Origin: a virus
Taxonomy: Duplodnaviria; Heunggongvirae; Uroviricota; Caudoviricetes
Length of the DNA stretch: 25,712 bases
Strand: one strand, 5' to 3'
Virus record (IMG/VR): IMGVR_UViG_2706794687_000008
Part shown: positions 4,881 through 22,700 of the stretch, in pieces
How the letters are laid out: each line of letters begins with the position of its first letter
Numbering within the stretch: position 1 is the first letter of the stretch
Program-made: the position numbers and the translations under genes
The notes under the pieces: generated by a model
Seen by the model: the letters and a program-made list of their open reading frames with translations, nothing else
The model's database searches: none
Told to the model about the DNA's origin: nothing

Positions 4881-5430
4881 GCAGGGTAACCGCGATTATC
4901 TCCGCTCTGGTTATTTGCATCATCGTCTGCCTGTCNNNNNNNNNNNNNNNNNNNNNNNNNNNNNNNNNNNNNNNNNNNNNNNNNNNNNNNNNNNNNNNNN
5001 NNNNNNNNNNNNNNNNNNNNNNNNNNNNNNNNNNNNNNNNNNNNNNNNNNNNNNNNNNNNNNNNNNNNNNNNNNNNNNNNNNNNNNNNNNNNNNNNNNNN
5101 NNNNNNNNNNNNNNNNNNNNNNNNNNNNNNNNNNNNNNNNNNNNNNNNNNNNNNNNNNNNNNNNNNNNNNNNNNNNNNNNNNNNNNNNCGAAAGCTGAAA
5201 ATGATGCTCTGCGTGATGATGTTGCCGCTGGTCGTCGTCGGTTGCACATCAAAGCAGTCTGTCAGTCAGTGCGTGAAGCCACCACCGCCTCCGGCGTGGA
5301 TAATGCAGCCTCCCCCCGACTGGCAGACACCGCTGAACGGGATTATTTCACCCTCCGGGAACGACTGGTAATGATGCAGGCCCAACTTGAAGGTGCTCAG
5401 CAATACATAACCGAGCAGTGTTTAAAGTAA
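4877..5430 (+). CDS. Rz: i-spanin Rz (interrupted by N-run 4936-5188)
   Basis: Starts [19 protein letters not shown] (N-terminal TMD). After the gap it continues [27 protein letters not shown] and ends EQCLK, lambda Rz-like. The reading frame before and after the N-run differs, so the gap length is not faithful. Confidence 0.75.
4936..5188. other. run of 253 N (assembly gap or masked segment)
   Basis: Directly visible in the sequence; it interrupts Rz. Confidence 1.
5201..5371 (+). CDS. Rz1: o-spanin Rz1 lipoprotein embedded in the +1 frame of Rz
   Basis: [19 protein letters not shown] with lipobox VVGC, followed by a proline-rich tract [15 protein letters not shown], lying wholly inside Rz in another frame. 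Confidence 0.7.
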   Translation: MMLCVMMLPLVVVGCTSKQSVSQCVKPPPPPAWIMQPPPDWQTPLNGIISPSGNDW

Positions 5431-5495: not shown

Positions 5496-5762
5496 NNNNN
5501 NNNNNNNNNNNNNNNNNNNNNNNNNNNNNNNNNNNNNNNNNNNNNNNNNNNNNNNNNNNNNNNNNNNNNNNNNNNNNNNNNNNNNNNNNNNNNNNNNNNN
5601 NNNNNNNNNNNNNNNNNNNNNNNNNNNNNNNNNNNNNNNNNNNNNNNNNNNNNNNNNNNNNNNNNNNNNNNNNNNNNNNNNNNNNNNNNNNNNNNNNNNN
5701 NNNNNNNNNNNNNNNNNNNNNNNNNNNNNNNNNNNNNNNNNNNNNNNNNNNNNNNNNNNNNN
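5496..5762. other. run of 267 N (assembly gap or masked segment)
   Basis: Directly visible in the sequence; it covers the predicted 5' end of trkG. Confidence 1.
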
Positions 5763-7037
5763 AAATCTGGCATTCAATTACGTACCCGTGATGGGTTTAT
5801 TATAATTGTAATGTTTTGGATTTTGTTTTCTGTTATTAGTGCATTCCCTTTATGGATTGACTCAGAACTTAATTTAACGTTCATTGATGCTCTGTTTGAA
5901 GGGGTTTCTGGAATAACAACAACAGGAGCAACTGTAATTGATGATGTTAGTTCATTACCTCGGGCATATTTGTACTATCGGTCACAGTTAAATTTTATAG
6001 GTGGTTTAGGAGTTATTGTTCTGGCGGTTGCAGTATTGCCATTATTGGGTATTGGTGGTGCAAAGCTTTATCAGTCAGAAATGCCGGGGCCATTTAAGGA
6101 TGACAAACTCACTCCCCGCCTGGCCGATACGTCACGGACACTGTGGATAACTTATTCTTTATTAGGTATTGCTTGTATTGTCTGTTATAGACTTGCAGGA
6201 ATGCCTTTGTTTGATGCTATTTGTCACGGGATTTCCACAGTTTCGCTTGGTGGTTTCTCAACTCATAGCGAGAGTATCGGATATTTTAATAACTATTTGG
6301 TTGAGCTGGTGGCTGGTTCTTTTTCCCTGCTATCGGCTTTCAACTTCACTCTTTGGTATATTGTTATTAGCAGAAAAACGATAAAACCTTTAATCAGAGA
6401 TATTGAACTTCGTTTCTTTCTGTTAATAGCCTTAGGGGTGATCATTGTTACCTCTTTCCAGGTCTGGCATATAGGTATGTATGACTTGCATGGAAGTTTT
6501 ATTCATTCGTTTTTTCTTGCCAGCTCCATGCTCACTGATAATGGTTTAGCTACGCAGGATTATGCAAACTGGCCCACGCACACGATAGTGTTTTTGCTGT
6601 TGTCAAGTTTCTTTGGGGGATGTATAGGTTCAACCTGTGGTGGAATTAAGTCACTTCGATTTCTTATACTTTTCAAACAAAGCAAACACGAGATAAATCA
6701 GCTTTCTCATCCCAGAGCGTTGTTGAGTGTAAATGTAGGAGGGAAGATAGTTACAGATCGTGTAATGAGGTCTGTATGGAGTTTCTTTTTTCTTTATACT
6801 CTCTTCACGGTGTTTTTTATACTGGTGTTAAATGGTATGGGATATGATTTTCTTACATCATTTGCAACAGTGGCTGCATGTATTAATAATATGGGATTAG
6901 GTTTTGGGGCTACTGCATCGTCATTCGGAGTGCTTAATGACATTGCAAAATATTTAATGTGCATAGCTATGATTCTTGGTCGCCTTGAAATTTATCCTGT
7001 TATTATATTGTTTTCAGGTTTTTTTTGGCGCTCCTAA
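5763..7037 (+). CDS. trkG: Trk-system K+ uptake protein TrkG/TrkH family (5' end lies in the N-run)
   Basis: Polytopic membrane protein. The frame is open straight from the gap edge (KSGIQLRTRDGFIIIVMFWILFSV) to the stop at 7037. The translation matches E. coli TrkG, the Rac-prophage K+ transporter, as I recall it, and the missing N-terminus would fall inside the gap. The segment is visibly AT-richer than the flanking phage genes. Confidence 0.85.
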   Translation, partial: KSGIQLRTRDGFIIIVMFWILFSVISAFPLWIDSELNLTFIDALFEGVSGITTTGATVIDDVSSLPRAYLYYRSQLNFIGGLGVIVLAVAVLPLLGIGGAKLYQSEMPGPFKDDKLTPRLADTSRTLWITYSLLGIACIVCYRLAGMPLFDAICHGISTVSLGGFSTHSESIGYFNNYLVELVAGSFSLLSAFNFTLWYIVISRKTIKPLIRDIELRFFLLIALGVIIVTSFQVWHIGMYDLHGSFIHSFFLASSMLTDNGLATQDYANWPTHTIVFLLLSSFFGGCIGSTCGGIKSLRFLILFKQSKHEINQLSHPRALLSVNVGGKIVTDRVMRSVWSFFFLYTLFTVFFILVLNGMGYDFLTSFATVAACINNMGLGFGATASSFGVLNDIAKYLMCIAMILGRLEIYPVIILFSGFFWRS

Positions 7038-7174
7038 TATATGGCTGATTTATAATTGTGAGTTTAATATTATGTTGACTCACTCATTGATCCAATACCT
7101 AACTTTACCAGCAACACCTCCGCCCCCAGTAGCACTGGCTGCTGGGGTGCGTTTTATTCATAAAGCAAGGCTGT

Positions 7175-7963
7175 ATGAGCGAGAAATTAAAGATAGTCTA
7201 TCGCCCATTACAAGAATTGTCACCGTATGCGCACAACGCCAGGACGCACAGTACTGAGCAGGTGGCACAACTGGTAGAAAGTATTAAGCAATTCGGCTGG
7301 ACTAATCCGGTGCTGATTGACGAAAAGGGCGAAATTATTGCGGGTCACGGTCGTGTTATGGCGGCTGAAATGCTCAAAATGGATTCTGTTCCGGTCATTG
7401 TTCTGTCTGGCCTGACGGATGAGCAGAAAAAGGCGTACCGCCTGGCAGATAATCGCCTGCCGATGAATGCTGGCTGGGATGAAGATCTGTTGCGGATGGA
7501 GCTGTCGGACCTAATCAATGCTGATTTTGATGTCTCCCTGACAGGCTTCATCCCGGCAGAAATTGATGAACTGTTGACGGATGTTTTGCCCGGTACAGGA
7601 AATGAGGAGGAGCCGTATACGACGAAAATTGATACGCCTGTTTATGAGCCGTCAGGCGGTAAACCGGATATCAGTGAACTGTACGACGATACGAAAACTC
7701 AGGAGCTGATCAGCCGGATACGTTCGGCGTCCCTTGATCCTGATATTGAGAAATTCCTCCTGTGTGCAGCAGAACGTCACACGGTGTTTAATTTCAGCAG
7801 AATTGCGGACTATTACGCTCATGCCCCCGCTGAAATTCAGTGCCTTTTCGAGGAGTCGGCGCTGGTGATCATTGATTATCAGCAGGCTATTGAAAATGGA
7901 TTTGTCCGAATGACGCAGCGCATGGTGGAGATCATGCATGGCGGGGAGGAGGAATATGCGTGA
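7175..7963 (+). CDS. ParB N-terminal domain-like protein (ParB/Srx-fold putative nuclease or DNA-binding protein)
   Basis: 262 aa. The N-terminus (KIVYRPLQELSPYAHNARTH, AQLVESIKQFGWTNPVLIDEKGEIIAGHGRVMAA) carries the hallmark ParB-box arrangement. Its stop overlaps the next start (ATGCGTGA). Confidence 0.7.
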   Translation: MSEKLKIVYRPLQELSPYAHNARTHSTEQVAQLVESIKQFGWTNPVLIDEKGEIIAGHGRVMAAEMLKMDSVPVIVLSGLTDEQKKAYRLADNRLPMNAGWDEDLLRMELSDLINADFDVSLTGFIPAEIDELLTDVLPGTGNEEEPYTTKIDTPVYEPSGGKPDISELYDDTKTQELISRIRSASLDPDIEKFLLCAAERHTVFNFSRIADYYAHAPAEIQCLFEESALVIIDYQQAIENGFVRMTQRMVEIMHGGEEEYA

Positions 7964-8888
7964 TGATTTTTGCGCCTTTATTCTGACTCACGGGCGACCG
8001 GACAAAGTTCTGACTTACCGGACGTTGCGTCGTGCTGGCTATACCGGGAAAATTTTTATCGTTGTTGATGATGAAGATAAGACACGGCATCAGTACATGG
8101 CTGAATTTGGTGAACAGGTGCTGGTATTTTCCAAAGCCGATATTGCTAGTCGTTTTGACGAAGCCGATAATTTTAGTGACCGCCGCTCAATTTTTTACGC
8201 CCGTAATGCCTGTTTCGACCAGGCAAAACTGGTCGGGTGTAAATACTTCATTCAGCTCGATGATGATTATCACGAGTTCCAGTTTCGGGTGGATCGCAAC
8301 TATGACCAGGCCTATTTCCCGATAAGGAAACTGGATGAGATCCTTTCTGAAATGCTTGCGTACTACGAATCAATACCTGCTCTTTCCATCGCTATGTCGC
8401 AGGGCGGGGATTTTCTTGGTGACAATGGCGGCCATGCTTCGTGGGTGAAACGCAAGGCAATGAACAGCTTTATCTGTTCGGTTGATCGACCGTTCTCATT
8501 CATGGGGCGCATTAACGAGGATGTGAATACGTACACGAATCTCGGTCGCTGTGGTGAATTGTTTATGACGATCGGTGCTGTCCAGTTAGGGCAGAAACAG
8601 ACGCAGAAAAACAGCGGCGGAATGACCGAGCTGTATCTGGATTCCGGAACCTACGTTAAAAGTTTTTACTCCGTCATGTATGCGCCGTCGTGCGTAAAAA
8701 TCTCACTTATGGGTGCCAGTCATAAACGCATTCACCATCAGGTCACCTGGAACAACGCTGCAGTAAAAATCCTTCACGAAAAATACAGGAAGAAGACACC
8801 CTGCATATCAATGGGGGTGACAAATGATTCCGTATTCGAAAGTCGAGTCTCTGGCAGCGTGCCGGATGACTGCACAACAAATCGCTGA
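7956..8888 (+). CDS. hypothetical protein, possibly GT-A-fold nucleotide-sugar transferase-like (two DxD-type motifs)
   Basis: The six-frame ORF runs 7938..8888; the ATG at 7956 (MRDDFCAFILTHGRPDK) overlaps the ParB-like stop. FILTHGRP and IFIVVDDED resemble the N-terminal strand and first acidic motif of GT2-type enzymes, and YFIQLDDDYHEF is a second DxD-like motif. The fold assignment is a weak inference. Confidence 0.35.
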   Translation: MRDDFCAFILTHGRPDKVLTYRTLRRAGYTGKIFIVVDDEDKTRHQYMAEFGEQVLVFSKADIASRFDEADNFSDRRSIFYARNACFDQAKLVGCKYFIQLDDDYHEFQFRVDRNYDQAYFPIRKLDEILSEMLAYYESIPALSIAMSQGGDFLGDNGGHASWVKRKAMNSFICSVDRPFSFMGRINEDVNTYTNLGRCGELFMTIGAVQLGQKQTQKNSGGMTELYLDSGTYVKSFYSVMYAPSCVKISLMGASHKRIHHQVTWNNAAVKILHEKYRKKTPCISMGVTNDSVFESRVSGSVPDDCTTNR

Positions 8889-9075
8889 CGTTCTGGATGT
8901 TGATCTGAACCGACTGAAAGAAAATCGGGAAGCAATGACAGATTTTTATGCGGCCATCCGTAAGGGCAGAGCGAAAGGTGAAGCCGAGTTACGAGCGGCA
9001 TTGTTTAAGCTTGCCAGAAAAGGGGATGCCTTTGCTCTGCGCGAACTACTCAGGGTGGATAAAAATCAGGACTAA
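8824..9075 (+). CDS. small hypothetical protein, possible HTH DNA-binding protein
   Basis: 83 aa ORF immediately upstream of the small terminase gene, with a helix-turn-helix-like segment (MTAQQIADVLDVDLNRLKE). It overlaps the end of the previous ORF by 65 nt, so the true start is uncertain. Confidence 0.35.
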   Translation: MIPYSKVESLAACRMTAQQIADVLDVDLNRLKENREAMTDFYAAIRKGRAKGEAELRAALFKLARKGDAFALRELLRVDKNQD

Positions 9076-9078
9076 CTG

Positions 9079-10173
9079 ATGAGCAGACCGGACTGGGGGG
9101 CGTTGCAGCAGGAGTATATTGCTGAATACACCCGCTCCGGTATATCTCCGGTGGCATGGTGTGAAGCAAGGGGACTGAATTACGCAACAGCCCGTCGTTA
9201 CATCAAAAAAACTCCGAAAAATGCGCAGACAGAAATGTGCAAAACTGCGCAAAAAAGTGCGCAGAAAAAATCTGCGCAGACTGCACAAAAGCGGAACGAA
9301 AAATCTCAGGAAAAAAAGCCAGTATTCGATGCGGGCCTGAATGAGGGCGACGCGGAGGAATTTTCGTTCTGTCCCGATGAATTCGGCATTTCTGACCAGC
9401 AGGCTAAGTTTGCGATGCTTGTTGCTCAGGGTAAAAAGCCGACAGAGGCGTACCGACTAGCCGGTTATGAGGGGCAAGGTGCGACAGCTAACAGCAACGC
9501 CAGTCGTATGCTTAGAAATGCCAGGGTTTTTCGCGCTATCAGCTACTTCCGCAATCAGTACCAGAAACGCTATACCGCAGACCTGGATTTACTAGTGAGT
9601 CAGTTGATGGCTATTGTCCTGGCCGACCCCAATCAGCTTGCACAATTTCGCCGTGTTAACTGCCGTTATTGCTGGGGCGAGAATCATCTCTACCAGTGGC
9701 GCGATATAGCAGAATTCGACAAGGCAGCGGCGCAGGCTTCCAGAGATGGCAAACCCGAACCGGAATATGGAGGCCTCGGCTTTGTTGATAACGCCATACC
9801 CAATCCGGACTGCCCGAAGTGCTGCGGTGAGGGAACGGGACAGCTTTATATGGCTGATACCACTCTGCTTGATGGGGATGCGCGGCAATTATATGCAGGG
9901 GCAAAATTCGGAAAATTCGGCGTTGAGATCCTGCTGGAGGATAAGGCTGCCGCCCGGCGTGAATTGTTGCGTTTGTTTTCTGCTGGCGGGGCTTTATGTG
10001 CAGATAAGCGGCTACGGGAACTGGAAATTGAACGGCGCAGAATGGAAAACCAGAAGCTGCGCAAAGAGATCGAAACGGTGGAAGATAATGAACATCCCCA
10101 GCCTGTGGCGATCAATATTAATGTGGTTGATGCCAGAGTAAGGAGTGATGAAGATGATCTCTCCGACGCTTAA
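9079..10173 (+). CDS. terminase small subunit (Terminase_2-like core with N-terminal HTH and Cys cluster)
   Basis: N-terminal HTH (ISPVAWCEARGLNYATARRYIKK). Central segment AKFAMLVAQGKKPTEAYRLAGYEGQGATANSNASRMLRNARVFRAI is typical of the small-terminase family. Cys-rich segment CRYCWGE...CPKCCGEG. Sits directly upstream of the large terminase gene. Confidence 0.65.
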   Translation: MSRPDWGALQQEYIAEYTRSGISPVAWCEARGLNYATARRYIKKTPKNAQTEMCKTAQKSAQKKSAQTAQKRNEKSQEKKPVFDAGLNEGDAEEFSFCPDEFGISDQQAKFAMLVAQGKKPTEAYRLAGYEGQGATANSNASRMLRNARVFRAISYFRNQYQKRYTADLDLLVSQLMAIVLADPNQLAQFRRVNCRYCWGENHLYQWRDIAEFDKAAAQASRDGKPEPEYGGLGFVDNAIPNPDCPKCCGEGTGQLYMADTTLLDGDARQLYAGAKFGKFGVEILLEDKAAARRELLRLFSAGGALCADKRLRELEIERRRMENQKLRKEIETVEDNEHPQPVAININVVDARVRSDEDDLSDA

Positions 10174-11455
10174 TGTGCCTCAGGCGCGATTTCTTTCAAT
10201 GCCCCATAAATTTAAAGCCTATATTGCTGGTTTTGGCTCGGGCAAAACATGGGTTGGGTGTGGCGGCATATGCAAGGGGATTTGGGAGCATCCAGGTATA
10301 AATCAGGGATATTTTGCGCCAACGTATCCCCAAATTCGCGATATTTTTTACCCTACAGTGGAAGAAGTTGCTGCTGACTGGGGATTGAACGTAAAAATTA
10401 ATGAGGGAAATAAAGAGGTTCACTTTTATTACGGACGCCAGTATCGGGGAACCACTATCTGCAGATCGATGGAGAAGCCACAAACGATCGTCGGTTTCAA
10501 AATTGGTAATGCGTTGGTGGATGAACTGGACATTTTGCCGAAGGAAAAAGCCAGAACGGCGTGGCGCAAGATAATTGCACGTATGCGTTATAAGATTGAT
10601 GGACTTCGCAACGGTATTGACGTTACAACCACGCCGGAAGGATTCAAATTTGTCTACGAGCAGTTTGTTAAAGCCGTGCGTGAAAAAACAGAGCTGGCCT
10701 CACTGTATGGTCTGGTGCAGGCATCTACTTTCGATAATGAAAAGAACCTGCCAGCAGATTACATTCCTTCGCTTCTTGAATCATACCCTCCAGAGCTGAT
10801 TAAAGCCTATCTTCGAGGACAGTTTACTAACCTGACAAGTGGTACTGTTTACCATCAGTTTGACCGGAAACTGAATAATTGCGAAGAAGTGGAGCAGCCA
10901 GGGGAGCCGATTTATATTGGGATGGATTTTAACGTTGGAAAGATGGCGGGAATCGTCCATGTGCTGCGTTTGGGGCTTCCATGTGCGGTAACTGAAATCA
11001 TCAATGCCTACGATACGCCGGATATGATCCGCATCATTAAAGAACGCTTCTGGCTGTATGATGGGAATGATTACCGGAAAGTGAGGGAAATTTATATTTA
11101 TCCAGATGCTTCCGGGGATTCCAGAAAATCAAGTAACGCAAGTACGACGGATATAGCCCAGCTTAAGCAGGCTGGTTTTAACGTTGTGGTGAACAGCTCG
11201 AACCCGCCAGTAAAAGATCGCGTTAACTCAATGAATGCAATGTTCTGCAATGCCAATGGTGAGCGTCGCTATAAAGTTAATGTGAAGCGTTGCCCGTTAT
11301 ATGCCGAATCTCTGGAGCAACAGGTCTGGGATGAGAAGGGGGAGCCTGATAAAAAATCTGGCAATGATCACCCGAATGATGCCGGAGGTTATTTCATCGT
11401 TAAGCAATTCCCTATTGTCAAACCGACCGGAAGAGTCACATCACTTCGGATTTAA
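10145..11455 (+). CDS. terminase large subunit (PBSX/Terminase_6-like ATPase-nuclease)
   Basis: 436 aa with a Walker A-like motif (AGFGSGKTW) near the N-terminus and acidic nuclease-type residues later. Gene order is TerS-TerL-portal. Start is approximate because the ORF overlaps the end of TerS. Confidence 0.8.
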   Translation: MMKMISPTLNVPQARFLSMPHKFKAYIAGFGSGKTWVGCGGICKGIWEHPGINQGYFAPTYPQIRDIFYPTVEEVAADWGLNVKINEGNKEVHFYYGRQYRGTTICRSMEKPQTIVGFKIGNALVDELDILPKEKARTAWRKIIARMRYKIDGLRNGIDVTTTPEGFKFVYEQFVKAVREKTELASLYGLVQASTFDNEKNLPADYIPSLLESYPPELIKAYLRGQFTNLTSGTVYHQFDRKLNNCEEVEQPGEPIYIGMDFNVGKMAGIVHVLRLGLPCAVTEIINAYDTPDMIRIIKERFWLYDGNDYRKVREIYIYPDASGDSRKSSNASTTDIAQLKQAGFNVVVNSSNPPVKDRVNSMNAMFCNANGERRYKVNVKRCPLYAESLEQQVWDEKGEPDKKSGNDHPNDAGGYFIVKQFPIVKPTGRVTSLRI

Positions 11456-19765: not shown

Positions 19766-22700
19766 ATGGCAGAGCAAACCTCGCGTCTCGCAATAATTAT
19801 TGATAGCACTGGAGCGAAAAATAATGCTGACAATCTGACCTCCTCATTAGTCAAAATGACGCAGGCTGGGGAAACTGCTGCAAATAGCGCAGGGAAAGTG
19901 ACTAAGGCAACAGAAGATGAGAAGAACGCGCTCGCAAAATTAAAAGCAGCTATTGATCCAGTTGGTGCCGCAATTGATACTGTCGGTCGACGCTATTCTG
20001 AATTAAAGAAATTTTTCGATAAAGGGCTTATTGATAAAGAAGAATATGAATTTCTTGTCCGTAAACTTAATGAAACCACAGAGGAATNNNNNNNNNNNNN
20101 NNNNNNNNNNNNNNNNNNNNNNNNNNNNNNNNNNNNNNNNNNNNNNNNNNNNNNNNNNNNNNNNNNNNNNNNNNNNNNNNNNNNNNNNNNNNNNNNNNNN
20201 NNNNNNNNNNNNNNNNNNNNNNNNNNNNNNNNNNNNNNNNNNNNNNNNNNNNNNNNNNNNNNNNNNNNNNNNNNNNNNNNNNNNNNNNNNNNNNNNNNNN
20301 NNNNNNNNNNNNNNNNNNNNNNNNNNNNNNNNNNNNNGGAGAGGCTCAGGCAGAGCGAGAAGCAGCAAAAGCGCATGATGAACAGGTTGTTGCTTTGCAA
20401 CGTCTGATTGCTCAACTTGATCCTGTCGGAACTGCTTTTAATCGTCTGGTAGAACAACAGAAACAGCTCAATGAAGCAAAAGCTAAGGGGATGCTTTCTC
20501 CTGAAATGTATGAGGAGCTTTCTGGAAAACTTCGTGCTATGCGGAGTGAGCTTGAGGTTACTCAATCACAATTAAGCAAAACCGGAATGTCGGCAAAACA
20601 AACGGCTTTTGCTATGCGCATGTTGCCTGTACAAATGACGGATATTGTTGTTGGGTTGTCCACTGGTCAGTCGCCATTTATGGTGTTAATGCAGCAGGGC
20701 GGCCAGCTAAAAGATATGTTCGGTGGGATTGGCCCGGCGATCAAAGGTGTAGGTTCTTATGTGCTGGGATTAATTAATCCTTTTACCCTGGCCGCAGCAG
20801 CCGTTGGGGTCTTAGGACTGGCTTACTATAAAGGCTCTCAGGAGCAGGACGAATTTAATAAATCTCTTATTCTTACCGGAAATCAGTTGGGGACAACCAG
20901 CGGGCAATTGGGCGATATAGCTCAACGTGCCGGGAATGCGGCTGATTCGACAACTGGTGCTGCGGCGGCAGTATTAAATCAGCTTGTGCGTTCGGGAAAG
21001 GTAGCGAGCAGTTCGCTGGAGCAAGTGACGACAGCGATAGTAAAAACGAGCGAAGTAACAGGAATATCAACCGAACAACTGGTTAATGACTTCAATGAAA
21101 TTGCAAAGGATCCTGTCAGTGCCATATCAAAACTTAATGATCAGTACCATTTTCTGACACTTGCGACTTATAACCAGATTAAGGCGCTACAGGATGAAGG
21201 GAACCAGCAGGAGGCCGCCCGCATTGCGACAGAAGAATACTCATCCTCAATGATCCAGCGCACCAACCAGATTAAAGAAAATCTTGGTTATCTTGAGACT
21301 GCATGGAAAGCTGTCGCAGACTCCGCAAAATGGGCATGGGATTCCATGCTGGATATTGGCCGTGAGGCCTCCCTTGATCAAAAAATCTCAGATGTTCTCC
21401 GTCAAATTGATGAAATAGAAAAAAATACCCGACCCGGAGTTTTCGGGTTAGGTGGCATTGGAGATGGCGGAGCTCAAAATAAAAGGCTGGCACGATTAAA
21501 GCAGCAATTGGGCGTACTTCAAGCAGAAAAAATTGCTCAGGACGTACTAAATTCATCAATAAACGATTACAACAAGCGACAACAGGAAGGAATTGAACTC
21601 AGACAGAGAGCAGATGCCTTTTCAAAACAATATCAGACCCGGGAGCAGCAGAGAGCTAGTGAACTTGCAAAACTGGAAAAGCTAAAGAATCAGTATTCAA
21701 AGGAAGAATATAATAATCTTATCGCTCAAATAAATGAGCGTTATAAAGATCCAAAGCAACCAAAGGCGAAAGGTTATTCTGATGATGCAGCCCAACGAAT
21801 GATTGATCATCTGAATCAACAGAATGCGTTACTAAGTTCACAAGCTGAGTTGACCGTTAAATTAAGTTCCTCTGAACAGGAACTGGTTAAGTGGCGTCAG
21901 CGGATTGCCGACCTAGAGTCACGACCATCATCGAAATTAACCCAGGATCAGAAATCGCTTCTCTTACACCGGGAAGAAATAACCACGTTGATGGAGAAAA
22001 ATGTTGCGATTGAAAAAAATAACAGGCTAATCAAGGAATCCGCCGAAATAACAGCATGGCGTGATTCATTGCAGGCTTCGATTGATAATCGTCAGCAGGG
22101 GTATGATATTCAGATTGCTGGTTATGGGGTTGGCGATAAAAATCAGCAACGCCAGCAGGAATTACTGCGGATTGAACATGGATATAACAATCAGCGTCTG
22201 CAACTTGAACGTGACTATGCAGATAAATCCCGTGGAATGTCAGATCATGTTTTTCAAGAGAAAATGCAGGCTCTGAATGATGCTCTGGAACGGGAAAAAG
22301 AAATTGTCAGACAGAAAAACGAGCAGCTCGATATTCAGGCAGGAGACTGGGTTAGTGGTGCCTCCCAGGGATTCAATAACTGGCTGGATGACACTAAGGA
22401 TATCAGTGAGCAGATAAAATCAACCACGACTCAGATGTTTGATGGGATGACCGATGCGCTGGGTGATTTTGTCACGACAGGCAAGGCAAATTTTCGTTCT
22501 TTCGCTACTTCCGTGATTTCGGATCTTAGTCGAATAGCATTAAAGGCTTCAATTACTGGGATTTTCGACAGCATTAGTAACAGTTCTTCTGGGGGGATTT
22601 TAGGAACTATCGGGAGTGCTATTAGTAAATTTATTCCGAATGCAAAGGGCGGTGTTTATGAGTCTCCGTCATTGAGCACGTATTCGAACGGTATTTATGA

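What the first reader, a model, noticed from the sequence alone, without database searches (positions are those of the whole stretch)
7175..8888. Overlapping ParB-like and GT-A-like genes just upstream of the terminase: possible DNA-modification or anti-restriction module
A ParB N-terminal-domain protein is translationally coupled (ATGCGTGA overlap) to a 310 aa protein with two DxD-like acidic motifs in a context resembling GT-A nucleotide-sugar transferases. ParB/Srx-fold proteins next to packaging genes are often parts of phage DNA-modification systems. This pairing would be an unusual candidate for glycosyl-type DNA hypermodification or another protective function. The GT assignment is tentative.
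Basis: partly seen in the sequence, partly recalled or inferred. Interest (0 to 1): 0.6.

Follow-up and report, generated by a model that had tools for sequence, protein, structure and literature searches.

The report
Phage glycosyltransferase with obligate ParB-fused partner
Just upstream of the terminase genes, this E. coli Rac-type prophage carries two overlapping genes, a sugar-transferring enzyme and a ParB-like partner protein; the same pair recurs in viruses of many bacterial phyla and of archaea, and it probably puts sugars on phage DNA, although none of the known precursor pathways is present.

Summary
ORF 7175..7963 (262 aa) has a ParB/Srx N-domain. It overlaps ORF 7956..8888 (310 aa) by the 8 nt ATGCGTGA. 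The second ORF is a GT-A glycosyltransferase of Pfam family TAGT (PF20691, E 3.7e-34), with invariant R14, DDD102-104, NED187-189 and HH260-261.

The window is an intact Rac-type prophage. K-12 keeps only an 87-aa YnaK stump and has lost the GT.

New here: the GT's constant partner is not the ParB domain. It is an unannotated ~125-aa C-terminal domain (CTD, residues ~140-262) with no Pfam or PDB match. A CTD gene directly precedes this TAGT subclade in 58/60 species-level genome loci, and a TAGT gene lies next to the CTD gene in 80/80 IMG/VR loci found by a CTD search. No third gene is conserved.

- ParB-fused partners sit just upstream of terminases of at least four TerL families.
- CTD-only partners sit among primase, helicase and clamp genes.
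- No TET/5mYOX or hydroxymethylase gene accompanies the module.

Best reading (about 0.5): a two-component, post-replicative phage DNA glycosylation module with an unknown acceptor. It parallels the recently shown ParB-activated phage thymine dioxygenases. The function is untested.

The parts
5580..7037 (+). trkG, a low-GC moron between the lysis genes and the module. It is not part of the module; its 5' part is N-masked in the window.
   Evidence: Pfam TrkH 4e-134; RefSeq annotation of the 100%-identical locus L001; GC 0.35-0.41 against 0.47-0.50 for the pair.
7124..7157 (+). Terminator-like hairpin (10-bp stem, 7 GC pairs, T-rich tail) that closes the trkG moron, 17 nt before the ParB-like start codon.
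   Evidence: Consensus scan. Function is inferred.
7175..7963 (+). Full-length ynaK: a ParB-like partner protein of 262 aa, made of ParB N-domain, disordered linker and CTD.
   Evidence: ORF; phrog_620 1.7e-90 over the full length; homologues at 39-42% identity in Lactobacillus phage c5 and Haloarcula virus HHTV-2 (26-34% in the Porphyromonas and Nocardia phage homologues).
7175..7579 (+). ParB/Srx (ParB-CTPase fold) N-terminal domain, residues 1-135. NAR21-23, GHGR57-60 and DN92-93 are present.
   Evidence: Pfam ParB_N. Model pLDDT is ~77-94 except one block at 69; Foldseek matches Noc, ParB-CTP, PadC, KorB and Srx. Conservation among 49 homologues: N21 49/49, G57 48, R60 40, N93 48. The same domain is fused to adenine MTases elsewhere.
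7616..7657 (+). Conserved linear motif YTxKIxxPxYEPxG (residues 148-161), predicted disordered when the protein is modelled alone.
   Evidence: Y148, K151, P155, Y157 and P159 are invariant or nearly so in 59 CTDs; pLDDT <50.
7658..7960 (+). Helical core of the CTD (residues 162-262), an unannotated domain that always accompanies this TAGT subclade.
   Evidence: No Pfam or NCBIfam hit beyond ParB_N and no PDB sequence relative. There are 1374 clusters at 50% identity, with the CTD always C-terminal. Adjacent to TAGT in 58/60 and 80/80 loci.
7945..7963 (+). Translational-coupling junction: SD GGAGGAGG (7945-7952), GT start ATG 7956, partner stop TGA 7961-7963.
   Evidence: Sequence. Gene overlaps of 4-44 nt are typical across homologous loci.
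7956..8888 (+). TAGT-family GT-A glycosyltransferase, 310 aa (RefSeq name 'GREB1-related protein').
   Evidence: Pfam PF20691 3.7e-34, phrog_842 7.5e-104. AF2 model plus Foldseek against PDB gives only GT-A enzymes. BFVD best hits are phage TAGT proteins, TM 0.74-0.81.
7977..8621 (+). Catalytic GT-A/TAGT domain (residues 8-222) with R14, D38-D41, D102-D104 (DxD) and N187-E188-D189.
   Evidence: Pfam envelope; invariant columns. The pattern matches the R...DDD...ED active-site signature reported for phage GT-A DNA glycosyltransferases (bioRxiv 10.1101/2023.12.21.572611).
8622..8810 (+). Clade-specific conserved C-terminal extension (residues 223-285: GGMTELY..GTYVKSFYSVMY.PSC..RIHH), outside the Pfam domain. 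Candidate partner-binding region.
   Evidence: Highly conserved but pLDDT 43-56 when modelled alone. The binding role is inferred.
8824..9075 (+). 83-aa ORF (RefSeq start 8866) resembling part of a small terminase. It overlaps the non-conserved tail of the GT.
   Evidence: phrog_309 8.3e-23; annotated as hypothetical in L001.
9079..10173 (+). Small terminase subunit (context).
   Evidence: Pfam Terminase_2, phrog_51.
10145..11455 (+). Large terminase subunit (context).
   Evidence: Pfam Terminase_6N/6C.

Best explanation
The two genes form a two-component phage glycosylation module that most likely acts on the phage's own DNA after replication.

The 310-aa protein is a catalytically intact, metal- and nucleotide-sugar-dependent GT-A enzyme of the TAGT family. 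The upstream protein supplies an obligate ~125-aa partner domain (CTD). I infer that the CTD binds the GT's clade-specific C-terminal extension. In the Rac version the CTD is fused to a ParB-type NTP-binding N-domain, which I infer tethers or activates the enzyme on double-stranded DNA. This would resemble the ParB-like activators of phage thymine dioxygenases and the ParB_N-methyltransferase fusions that occupy the same genome slot.

The pair is read with the late genes just ahead of the terminase, so it would mark progeny DNA before or during packaging and protect it from host nucleases on the next infection. Partner variants without the ParB domain do the same job from within the replication module.

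Shown: the fold, the catalytic motifs, the obligate gene pairing, the two DNA-transaction contexts and the absence of a hydroxymethyl-pyrimidine pathway. Inferred: physical complex formation, DNA as the acceptor, the protective role and the timing. The acceptor atom is unknown.
For: 1. GT identity. Pfam TAGT 3.7e-34, GT-A fold, and invariant R14/DDD/NED/HH. This matches the signature of characterised phage GT-A DNA glycosyltransferases. TAGT includes the T2/T6 enzyme that glucosylates glucosyl-hmC DNA (PMC13216743).

2. Obligate pair. A CTD gene sits directly upstream of TAGT, usually overlapping it, in 58/60 species-level loci spanning many bacterial phyla and an archaeon. The pair is also present in Haloarcula virus HHTV-2, Lactobacillus, Nocardia and Porphyromonas phages, and TAGT is adjacent in 80/80 IMG/VR CTD-only loci. 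No third gene is conserved.

3. Two independent DNA-transaction contexts.
- In 48 loci with enough downstream sequence (mostly ParB-fused partners), the first large downstream ORF is usually a terminase, from at least four TerL families (Terminase_6N 19, Terminase_3 13, TerL_ATPase 3, GpA 2 of 48).
- CTD-only forms lie beside primase-helicase, DnaB, SNF2 helicase or a beta-clamp, and beside DnaB, DnaA_C, ERF and YqaJ genes in the IMG/VR lineage.

4. The same ParB N-domain is fused to adenine DNA methyltransferases at the same genome position (phrog_498 6e-51, PADLOC MTase_II 1.5e-38, tblastn hits). One partner is an MTase-like+ParB+CTD fusion.

5. Precedent. ParB-like proteins lacking an HTH are required activators of phage thymine dioxygenases on dsDNA (PMC13229309).

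6. The GT is basic (median pI 8.9) and the partner acidic (pI 4.6).

7. A UDP-galactopyranose mutase gene directly follows the GT in one locus, and a second TAGT is adjacent in another. This resembles known DNA-glycan clusters.

8. The pair has the GC content of the late genes, unlike the trkG moron.
Against: There is no experimental evidence of any kind for this pair, and no report of modified DNA in c5, HHTV-2, NTR1 or Rac-type phages was found.

Canonical DNA offers no hydroxyl on a base, and every characterised DNA GT of this family uses 5hmC, 5hmU or a sugar already on them. No TET/5mYOX, dCMP or dUMP hydroxymethylase, or C5-MTase is present in the 38-kb Rac locus or the whole 31.8-kb c5 genome, and none appears among the 25 most frequent Pfam families (of 86 found) in 142 neighbouring proteins.

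The TAGT family also contains a protein O-GlcNAc transferase, GREB1 (PMC7968844). The ParB N-domain is dispensable in many homologues, and its box-II arginine is missing in 9/49. The complex between the two proteins could not be modelled here. The CTD model is of low confidence, so its fold and role are unknown. An acidic upstream partner with a basic downstream enzyme also fits an inhibitor-enzyme pair.
Confidence: 0.5

Rival explanations
1. The GT glycosylates a protein rather than DNA. The most likely acceptor would be its own partner, at the invariant Tyr/Thr/Ser of the disordered YTxKIxxPxYEP(S/T)G motif (glycogenin-like or GREB1-like). Otherwise the acceptor would be a packaging or replication protein.
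For: The TAGT-family member GREB1 O-GlcNAcylates a protein. Glycogenin, collagen GalT and ppGalNAc-T are among the structural matches. The only universally co-occurring protein is the partner, which carries an invariant, disordered, hydroxyl-rich motif. No hydroxylated base pathway is present.
Against: Terminases, capsids and replication proteins differ between loci, so no other common protein acceptor exists. The link to the ParB N-domain, which is otherwise fused to DNA methyltransferases, and the placement in two DNA-handling modules are better explained by a DNA target. Fold-search matches to protein GTs reflect only the shared GT-A fold (TM 0.25-0.45).
Confidence: 0.2
2. The pair is a toxin-antitoxin-like or regulated-toxicity pair, or a prophage defence module. 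The acidic upstream protein would neutralise a basic, potentially host-toxic GT that is released during infection or stress.
For: The arrangement is antitoxin-like: a small acidic protein upstream and a basic enzyme downstream, with overlapping genes. The location is a prophage moron hotspot next to trkG.
Against: No PADLOC defence model matches the GT, and the partner's only hit is its ParB N-domain against a type II methyltransferase model. The pair is present in phages with no integrase gene (c5, HHTV-2) and is embedded in core replication or packaging modules. Its GC content matches the late genes, not the moron. It is conserved at 40-45% identity across domains of life as a syntenic phage gene pair.
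Confidence: 0.07
3. The ParB-like protein works in partition or packaging (pac/cos recognition or nuclease), and the GT is an incidental neighbour. Alternatively, the GT modifies a cell-envelope glycan for lysogenic conversion, as TarP or Gtr enzymes do.
For: Database names read 'ParB-like partition protein/nuclease'. The position next to the terminase fits a packaging role. TarP, a prophage GT-A, is a reported structural relative of phage GT-A enzymes.
Against: The partner has no HTH domain, there is no ParA gene, and it scores below the partition-ParB cutoff (TIGR00180 38.1 against 58.45). The ParB N-domain is absent in many partners while the CTD-GT pairing is invariant. These loci have their own small terminases. 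The module occurs in viruses of Gram-negative, Gram-positive and archaeal hosts, whose envelopes are unrelated, including phages with no integrase gene (c5, HHTV-2).
Confidence: 0.06
4. The enzyme is a conventional TAGT that glycosylates 5hmC, 5hmU or glucosyl-hmC. The precursor would be supplied by an unrecognised phage or host enzyme.
For: All characterised DNA-acting TAGT relatives use such acceptors. Many phage 5mYOX enzymes escape the Pfam TET_JBP model.
Against: No candidate was found in the complete 31.8-kb c5 genome, in the 38-kb Rac locus, or among the 25 most frequent Pfam families of the 142 neighbours scanned. No third gene co-occurs with the pair. E. coli makes no 5hmC or 5hmU.
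Confidence: 0.07

Closest known systems
TET/5mYOX-associated GT-A DNA glycosyltransferases of phages (TAGT, PF20691), base-J glucosyltransferase and GREB1
   Same: Same Pfam family, well above the cutoff (118.9 bits against 27.5). Same GT-A fold and the same R...DDD...ED catalytic signature.
   Different: No TET/5mYOX, C5-MTase or thymidylate-synthase-like hydroxymethylase nearby. It carries a conserved C-terminal extension outside the Pfam domain and an obligate CTD partner gene. I found neither described for those enzymes.
T2/T6 beta-glucosyl-HMC-alpha-glucosyltransferase (Ggt)
   Same: Both match PF20691, with structural similarity to a T4-like phage Ggt (E 1.6e-7). PHROG and RefSeq transfer this name to the Rac-clade proteins.
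   Different: T6 Ggt scores only 35.8 bits and gives no profile-profile match. It sits next to dCMP hydroxymethylase with alpha-GT in the genome and has no CTD neighbour. Its acceptor, glucosyl-hmC, cannot exist in Rac-type phage DNA.
ParB-dependent phage thymine dioxygenases (5mYOX176/ParB176; PMC13229309)
   Same: A ParB-like protein with a nucleotide-binding N-domain, a disordered linker and a C-terminal domain, with no HTH. It is encoded next to a DNA-modifying enzyme that carries a subclass-specific C-terminal extension, and these clusters are often near terminases.
   Different: The partner enzyme here is a glycosyltransferase, not a dioxygenase. The CTD here also occurs without any ParB domain and is always tied to TAGT. 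Homology between the two CTDs could not be tested because the sequences are not held.
ParB_N-DNA methyltransferase fusions of phages (PF02195+PF01555; phrog_498)
   Same: The first ~140 aa are 47-62% identical to the N-domains of such fusions, which occupy the same slot at the genome start or next to the terminase.
   Different: Here the MTase domain is replaced by the CTD, and the catalytic activity is supplied in trans by a separate GT.
Canonical partition ParB/Noc/KorB
   Same: ParB-CTPase fold; the box-II Gly/Arg and box-III Asn are retained.
   Different: No HTH DNA-binding domain, no ParA, no parS context, and a score below the TIGR00180 cutoff. The GERR glutamate is replaced by His or Asn.

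Membership tests
TAGT (Pfam PF20691) GT-A glycosyltransferases | Match to the family HMM above the curated gathering score | tested here: met
   118.9 bits against a cutoff of 27.5, E 3.7e-34, residues 8-222.
TAGT (Pfam PF20691) GT-A glycosyltransferases | GT-A Rossmann-like fold | tested here: met
   AF2 model with pLDDT >90 over most of residues 1-215. All significant PDB matches are GT-A enzymes. BFVD best hits are TAGT proteins, TM 0.74-0.81.
TAGT (Pfam PF20691) GT-A glycosyltransferases | DxD metal/donor-binding motif and the R...DDD...ED signature | tested here: met
   R14, D102-D104 and D189 are invariant across 8 very divergent homologues, including archaeal-virus and Bacteroidota-phage members. 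E188 is nearly invariant, being Asp in two of the eight.
TAGT (Pfam PF20691) GT-A glycosyltransferases | Genomic association with TET/JBP (5mYOX) or another hydroxymethyl-pyrimidine source | tested here: not met
   None in the 38-kb Rac locus or the whole c5 genome. No third gene is conserved. None appears among the 25 most frequent Pfam families of 142 neighbours.
TAGT (Pfam PF20691) GT-A glycosyltransferases | Transfer of a sugar from a nucleotide sugar to DNA | not testable with these tools
   Needs biochemistry or LC-MS.
T-even beta-glucosyl-HMC-alpha-glucosyltransferase (the name carried by RefSeq/PHROG homologues) | Orthology to T2/T6 Ggt, and presence of hmC plus alpha-GT in the genome | tested here: not met
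   tblastn finds no T-even phage; hhalign finds no match; T6 context differs; the prophage has no hmC pathway.
ParB/Srx N-terminal (ParB-CTPase) fold | HMM match and fold | tested here: met
   ParB_N 29.3 bits against 26.3. Foldseek matches Noc, ParB-CTPgS, PadC, KorB and Srx.
ParB/Srx N-terminal (ParB-CTPase) fold | NTP-binding residues (box II GxxR, box III N) | tested here: inconclusive
   G57, R60 and N93 are present in the window. R60 is lost in 9/49 homologues, and the GERR Glu is His or Asn. NTP binding itself is not testable here.
Canonical partition ParB (ParABS) | HTH parS-binding domain, ParA partner, full-length family model | tested here: not met
   TIGR00180 38.1 against a cutoff of 58.45. 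No HTH in the model. No ParA in the locus.
ParB-dependent DNA-modification pairs (5mYOX/ParB type) | HTH-less ParB-like protein encoded next to a cognate DNA-modifying enzyme that has a subclass-specific extension | tested here: met
   Architecture and adjacency. The GT has a conserved extension outside the Pfam domain.
ParB-dependent DNA-modification pairs (5mYOX/ParB type) | The partner enzyme is a 5-methylpyrimidine dioxygenase, and ParB activates it on dsDNA | tested here: not met
   The partner is a GT, so this is an analogue and not a member. Activation is not testable here.
Type II toxin-antitoxin pair | Small acidic antitoxin upstream of a toxic enzyme; match to a known TA or defence model | tested here: inconclusive
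   The charge pattern and gene overlap fit, but there is no PADLOC match for the GT and the genomic context is core phage modules.

The most novel reading that the evidence does not exclude
The module installs a sugar on canonical, non-hydroxymethylated DNA. The site could be an exocyclic amine of a base (chemically plausible, since from my own knowledge GT-A arginine-GlcNAc transferases such as NleB/SseK glycosylate nitrogen) or another site such as the backbone. An unannotated adaptor domain would couple the enzyme either to a ParB-type clamp at packaging or to the replisome. That would be a new class of DNA modification, present in about 30% of complete E. coli genomes' Rac-type prophages and in viruses of many bacterial phyla and of archaea.
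Probability: 0.3. Interest if true: 0.9.

Novelty: new variant of a known kind. Interest (0 to 1): 0.62.

Why it matters
A 2026 survey noted that 288 of 753 GT-encoding phage genomes carry 'solitary' TAGT homologues with no known acceptor pathway and left them unexplained (PMC13216743). This analysis shows that one large subclade of them is never solitary. It always comes with a previously unannotated partner domain, usually fused to a ParB-type module, and it sits in packaging or replication gene blocks.

If the pair glycosylates DNA without a hydroxymethyl precursor, it would define a new DNA modification chemistry. It would also extend the newly discovered 'ParB as activator of DNA-modifying enzymes' principle from dioxygenases to glycosyltransferases.

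The question is directly testable in E. coli. K-12 is a natural null, because its Rac remnant kept only 87 codons of ynaK and lost the GT, while hundreds of sequenced strains carry the intact pair.

There is also an annotation consequence. The genes are currently labelled 'partition protein', 'pseudogene' or 'beta-glucosyl-HMC-alpha-glucosyltransferase', and all three labels mislead.

Tried and rejected
- Defence-system models (PADLOC): no match for the GT, and only an MTase N-domain match for the partner.
- NCBIfam: nothing for the GT, and only sub-threshold ParB models for the partner.
- PDB sequence search with a 59-sequence CTD profile: only noise, E >= 0.013.
- AF2 of the partner: the CTD came out at low confidence, so no fold search was meaningful for it.
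- hhalign of the Rac-clade GT profile against T6 Ggt: no match.
- Search for natural CTD-GT fusions as Rosetta-stone evidence: none in about 140 loci or in the 150 best representative clusters.
- Search for a conserved third gene: none.
- Hypothesis that CTD-only modules always neighbour a beta-clamp: only 1 clear and 1 weak case among those examined; helicase or primase neighbours are the commoner pattern.
- Literature searches for the pair, for ynaK function, and for DNA modification in HHTV-2 or related phages: nothing relevant.
- Iyer et al. 2013 (NAR 41:7635), which named TAGT and proposed that ParB directs DNA-modification machinery during packaging, is not held. I could not check whether it already lists this ParB-TAGT pairing.
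- The first genome-contig scan, with too divergent an alignment, failed. The afdb50 library was unavailable.
- Complex prediction was not possible with the tools offered.
Full report
**What is in the window**

The window is 100% identical to many E. coli chromosomes over 7000..9100. In the annotated twin locus (L001, strain EC2) it is an essentially intact Rac-type lambdoid prophage. The gene order is: recE...kilR, sieB, replication genes, lysis genes essD/rrrD/rzpD, trkG, ynaK, 'GREB1-related protein', small and large terminase, portal, head and tail genes.

The 2.1-kb region matches 1610 of 5426 complete E. coli genomes, and 867 of them hold at least 80% of it. In K-12 MG1655 a deletion joins codon ~87 of ynaK to ydaY. 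It removes the rest of ynaK, the GT and all packaging and head genes.

**Checking the observation**

ORF 7175..7963 (262 aa) and ORF 7956..8888 (310 aa) are real. They overlap by ATGCGTGA, and the second start is preceded by the Shine-Dalgarno sequence GGAGGAGG.

The first protein matches Pfam ParB_N. Its modelled N-domain (residues 1-135) superposes on Noc, CTP-bound ParB, PadC, KorB and sulfiredoxin.

The second protein matches Pfam PF20691, 'TET-associated glycosyltransferase' (TAGT), with E 3.7e-34. Its AlphaFold2 model is confident over residues 1-215. In the PDB it matches only GT-A enzymes: collagen GalT, GnT-I, GpgS, SpsA, ppGalNAc-T, glycogenin and LARGE1. Among viral models its best matches are phage TAGT proteins with TM 0.74-0.81.

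With R14, N187-E188-D189 and H260-H261 they are conserved even in archaeal-virus and Bacteroidota-phage homologues. They reproduce the R...DDD...ED signature described for phage GT-A DNA glycosyltransferases (bioRxiv 10.1101/2023.12.21.572611).

Both genes are intact in thousands of database sequences. They evolve under strong constraint: dN is 0.14-0.30 with dS saturated.

**The pair is a conserved module, and the true partner is an unannotated domain**

tblastn against GenBank phages finds the GT and the full-length partner side by side at roughly 40-45% identity in several unrelated viruses:
- Lactobacillus delbrueckii phages c5, phiLdb and PMBT4 (LL-Ku and Ld17 gave GT hits only in these searches)
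- L. gasseri phages phi jlb1 and JNU_P11
- Nocardia phage NTR1
- a human gut phage
- the haloarchaeal virus HHTV-2

The pair in Porphyromonas phages is more distant, at about 26-28% identity.

A scan of one genome per species returned 60 loci. They come from Pseudomonadota, Bacteroidota, Bacillota, Actinomycetota, Planctomycetota, Saccharibacteria, Ignavibacteria, Cloacimonadota, a Bdellovibrio relative and an archaeon.

I built HMMs for the GT, the ParB N-domain and the C-terminal half of the partner. With these, 58 of the 60 loci have the GT gene directly preceded by a gene carrying that C-terminal domain ('CTD', window residues ~140-262), usually with a 4-44 nt overlap. The two exceptions are a contig edge and a truncated GT.

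Of the 59 partner ORFs classified, 11 are CTD-only, with no ParB domain; 3 of these are cut off at contig ends, and the other 8 are 131-153 aa. One of them is the previously unannotated 139-aa gene upstream of the GT in the 191-kb Vibrio phage pv27.

A CTD-profile search found 3643 proteins. The best hits are stand-alone proteins of about 130 aa with no Pfam domain. Two of these were looked up and overlap a TAGT gene. In 80 IMG/VR loci retrieved with a CTD-only profile, a TAGT gene is adjacent in 79 and lies 260 nt downstream in the eightieth.

Against 1.84 billion representative proteins the CTD family has 1374 clusters at E <= 1e-3. The CTD is always C-terminal. Among the 150 best clusters, 33 are under 200 aa and 109 are 230-320 aa (ParB-fused). 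None is fused to a GT.

The CTD has no PDB relative by sequence. Its conserved signature is YTxKIxxPxYEPxG...KxFLxxAAxRHxVFNYxKIAEYYAHAxxExQxLMExSALVIID.

All-against-all clustering of neighbouring genes finds no third conserved gene.

**Context**

In the 48 loci with enough downstream sequence, the first large ORF after the pair is usually a terminase, from at least four TerL families: Terminase_6N 19, Terminase_3 13, TerL_ATPase 3 and GpA 2. In 4 more it is a small terminase. A few are portal proteins. In c5 the pair is ORF1 and ORF2, right after cos. In NTR1 it abuts TerL. The position upstream of the packaging genes is therefore kept across unrelated terminase families.

The CTD-only variants sit in replication modules instead:
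- primase-helicase | CTD | GT | SNF2 helicase
- GT2 | CTD | GT | beta-clamp
- CTD | GT | DnaB
- SAM-MTase | CTD | GT | clamp-like ORF
- primase and exonuclease ... CTD | GT | helicase, in Vibrio phage pv27

In the IMG/VR CTD-only lineage the recurrent neighbours are DnaB, a DnaA_C HTH protein, ERF and YqaJ.

One locus has UDP-galactopyranose mutase immediately after the GT. One partner is a 516-aa MTase-like+ParB+CTD fusion. Its MTase part stands alone upstream of a CTD-only gene in another locus.

In the window the pair has the GC content of the late genes (0.47-0.50). The preceding trkG is a low-GC moron closed by a strong hairpin terminator at 7124-7147.

**What is absent**

No TET/JBP-type dioxygenase, dCMP or dUMP hydroxymethylase, or C5-methyltransferase is annotated in the 38-kb Rac locus. 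None is found anywhere in the complete 31.8-kb genome of phage c5. None appears among the 25 most frequent Pfam families of 142 neighbouring proteins (only the first 25 of 86 families were displayed).

T6 Ggt, the characterised T-even TAGT, is only a distant relative. It scores 35.8 bits on PF20691, gives no hhalign match and has no CTD neighbour. The label 'beta-glucosyl-HMC-alpha-glucosyltransferase' on c5, HHTV-2 and other homologues is therefore a transferred name, not a function.

**Mechanistic reading**

Shown:
- The GT is a catalytically intact GT-A enzyme.
- Its coding gene is inseparable from a CTD-encoding gene.
- The CTD is usually fused to a ParB-CTPase-fold domain. That domain is the N-terminal module of adenine DNA methyltransferases in other phages at the same genome position (phrog_498, PADLOC MTase_II, tblastn hits; also PMC12704722).
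- The module lives only in DNA-packaging or DNA-replication gene blocks.
- The GT is basic (median pI 8.9) and the partner acidic (median pI 4.6).

Inferred:
- The CTD binds the GT. Two segments are strongly conserved yet poorly modelled in isolation: the CTD motif and helices, and GT residues 223-285, which lie outside the Pfam domain. This is what co-folding interfaces look like.
- The ParB domain tethers or activates the enzyme on dsDNA.
- The product is glycosylated phage DNA that resists host nucleases.

The closest experimental precedent is the 2026 demonstration that HTH-less ParB-like proteins are required, cognate-specific activators of a subclass of phage thymine dioxygenases on dsDNA. 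Those dioxygenases carry a subclass-specific C-terminal extension (PMC13229309). [quoted passage not shown] I have this only as cited in PMC8256090; the original paper is not held.

The box-II arginine and box-III asparagine of the ParB fold are mostly conserved (R60 40/49, N93 48/49). They are not universal, and the hydrolytic Glu is replaced. So NTP dependence is open, as it is in the dioxygenase system.

**Weak point and rivals**

Canonical DNA has no base hydroxyl, and all known DNA-acting relatives need 5hmC, 5hmU or a sugar already attached. Three options follow:
- The module makes a new kind of linkage on DNA. This is the most novel reading, at about 0.3.
- A precursor enzyme has gone unrecognised. 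This is unlikely given the complete c5 genome.
- The acceptor is not DNA.

The strongest rival is protein glycosylation (0.2). The TAGT relative GREB1 O-GlcNAcylates a protein. The only universally co-occurring protein is the partner itself, with its invariant, disordered, hydroxyl-bearing motif.

A toxin-antitoxin-like or defence reading, a partition or packaging role for the ParB-like protein, and envelope glycan modification are each poorly supported. The reasons are given under the rival explanations.

**Novelty and verdict**

The GT is a bona fide TAGT-family member. The idea that ParB-like proteins accompany DNA-modifying enzymes is already published. I did not find the following described in the papers I could search:
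- the obligate CTD partner domain
- its optional fusion to ParB
- the split between packaging and replication contexts
- the complete absence of a hydroxymethyl-pyrimidine pathway

A 2026 paper explicitly lists solitary TAGT homologues as unexplained (PMC13216743).

I classify the module as a new variant of a known kind and give it moderately high interest. The functional claim remains an inference, and it can be tested directly in E. coli K-12.

Noticed in passing
window 7175..7963; L001 18176-18433; L232 3378-3641: RefSeq/PGAP marks ynaK as an incomplete pseudogene ('missing C-terminus') in strains that carry the full 262-aa ORF. The reference K-12 YnaK is itself an 87-aa deletion remnant, so the intact gene is mis-annotated and the remnant is treated as the standard.
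   Followed up: yes
window 5580..7157: trkG is a low-GC (0.35-0.41) moron inserted between the lysis genes and the ParB-like/GT/terminase block. It is closed by a strong terminator-like hairpin at 7124-7147. Its 5' end is N-masked in the window.
   Followed up: partly
window 4936-5188, 5496-5762, 20088-20337: Three runs of N (253, 267 and 250 nt) mask parts of the window, including the Rz-like region, the trkG start and part of the tail-gene region.
   Followed up: no
window 8811..9075: The Rac GT has a C-terminal tail of about 22-25 aa that is absent from homologues (285-290 aa). The tail overlaps an 83-aa ORF (8824..9075; RefSeq start 8866) that resembles an internal piece of a small terminase (phrog_309). 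That ORF lies directly upstream of the 364-aa small terminase, which may mean a split or two-part TerS.
   Followed up: partly
L113 2970-6196: In a Bacteroidaceae MAG contig, two TAGT genes flank the CTD-only gene and are followed by a DNA polymerase III beta-clamp homologue. This suggests sequential glycosylation linked to the replisome.
   Followed up: partly
L134 1743-4527: A UDP-galactopyranose mutase gene overlaps the 3' end of the GT gene in a Pseudobdellovibrionaceae contig. This hints that some modules use a furanose donor.
   Followed up: no
L112 189-1739; L138 122-967: One partner protein is a 516-aa fusion of a SAM-methyltransferase-like region, ParB_N and the CTD. A homologous methyltransferase stands alone just upstream of a CTD-only gene in another locus.
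   Followed up: partly
(E. coli hits such as P0200, P0220, P0230, P0027): Many E. coli database entries are chimeric ORFs that join part of ynaK or the GT to Lom, tail-fibre or terminase fragments. They record independent deletions in decaying Rac prophages, like the one in K-12.
   Followed up: no
L103 (Virgibacillus sp. plasmid pCBA3643-01, 50 kb): The module also occurs on a 50-kb replicon annotated as a plasmid, with a terminase downstream. This may be a phage-plasmid.
   Followed up: no
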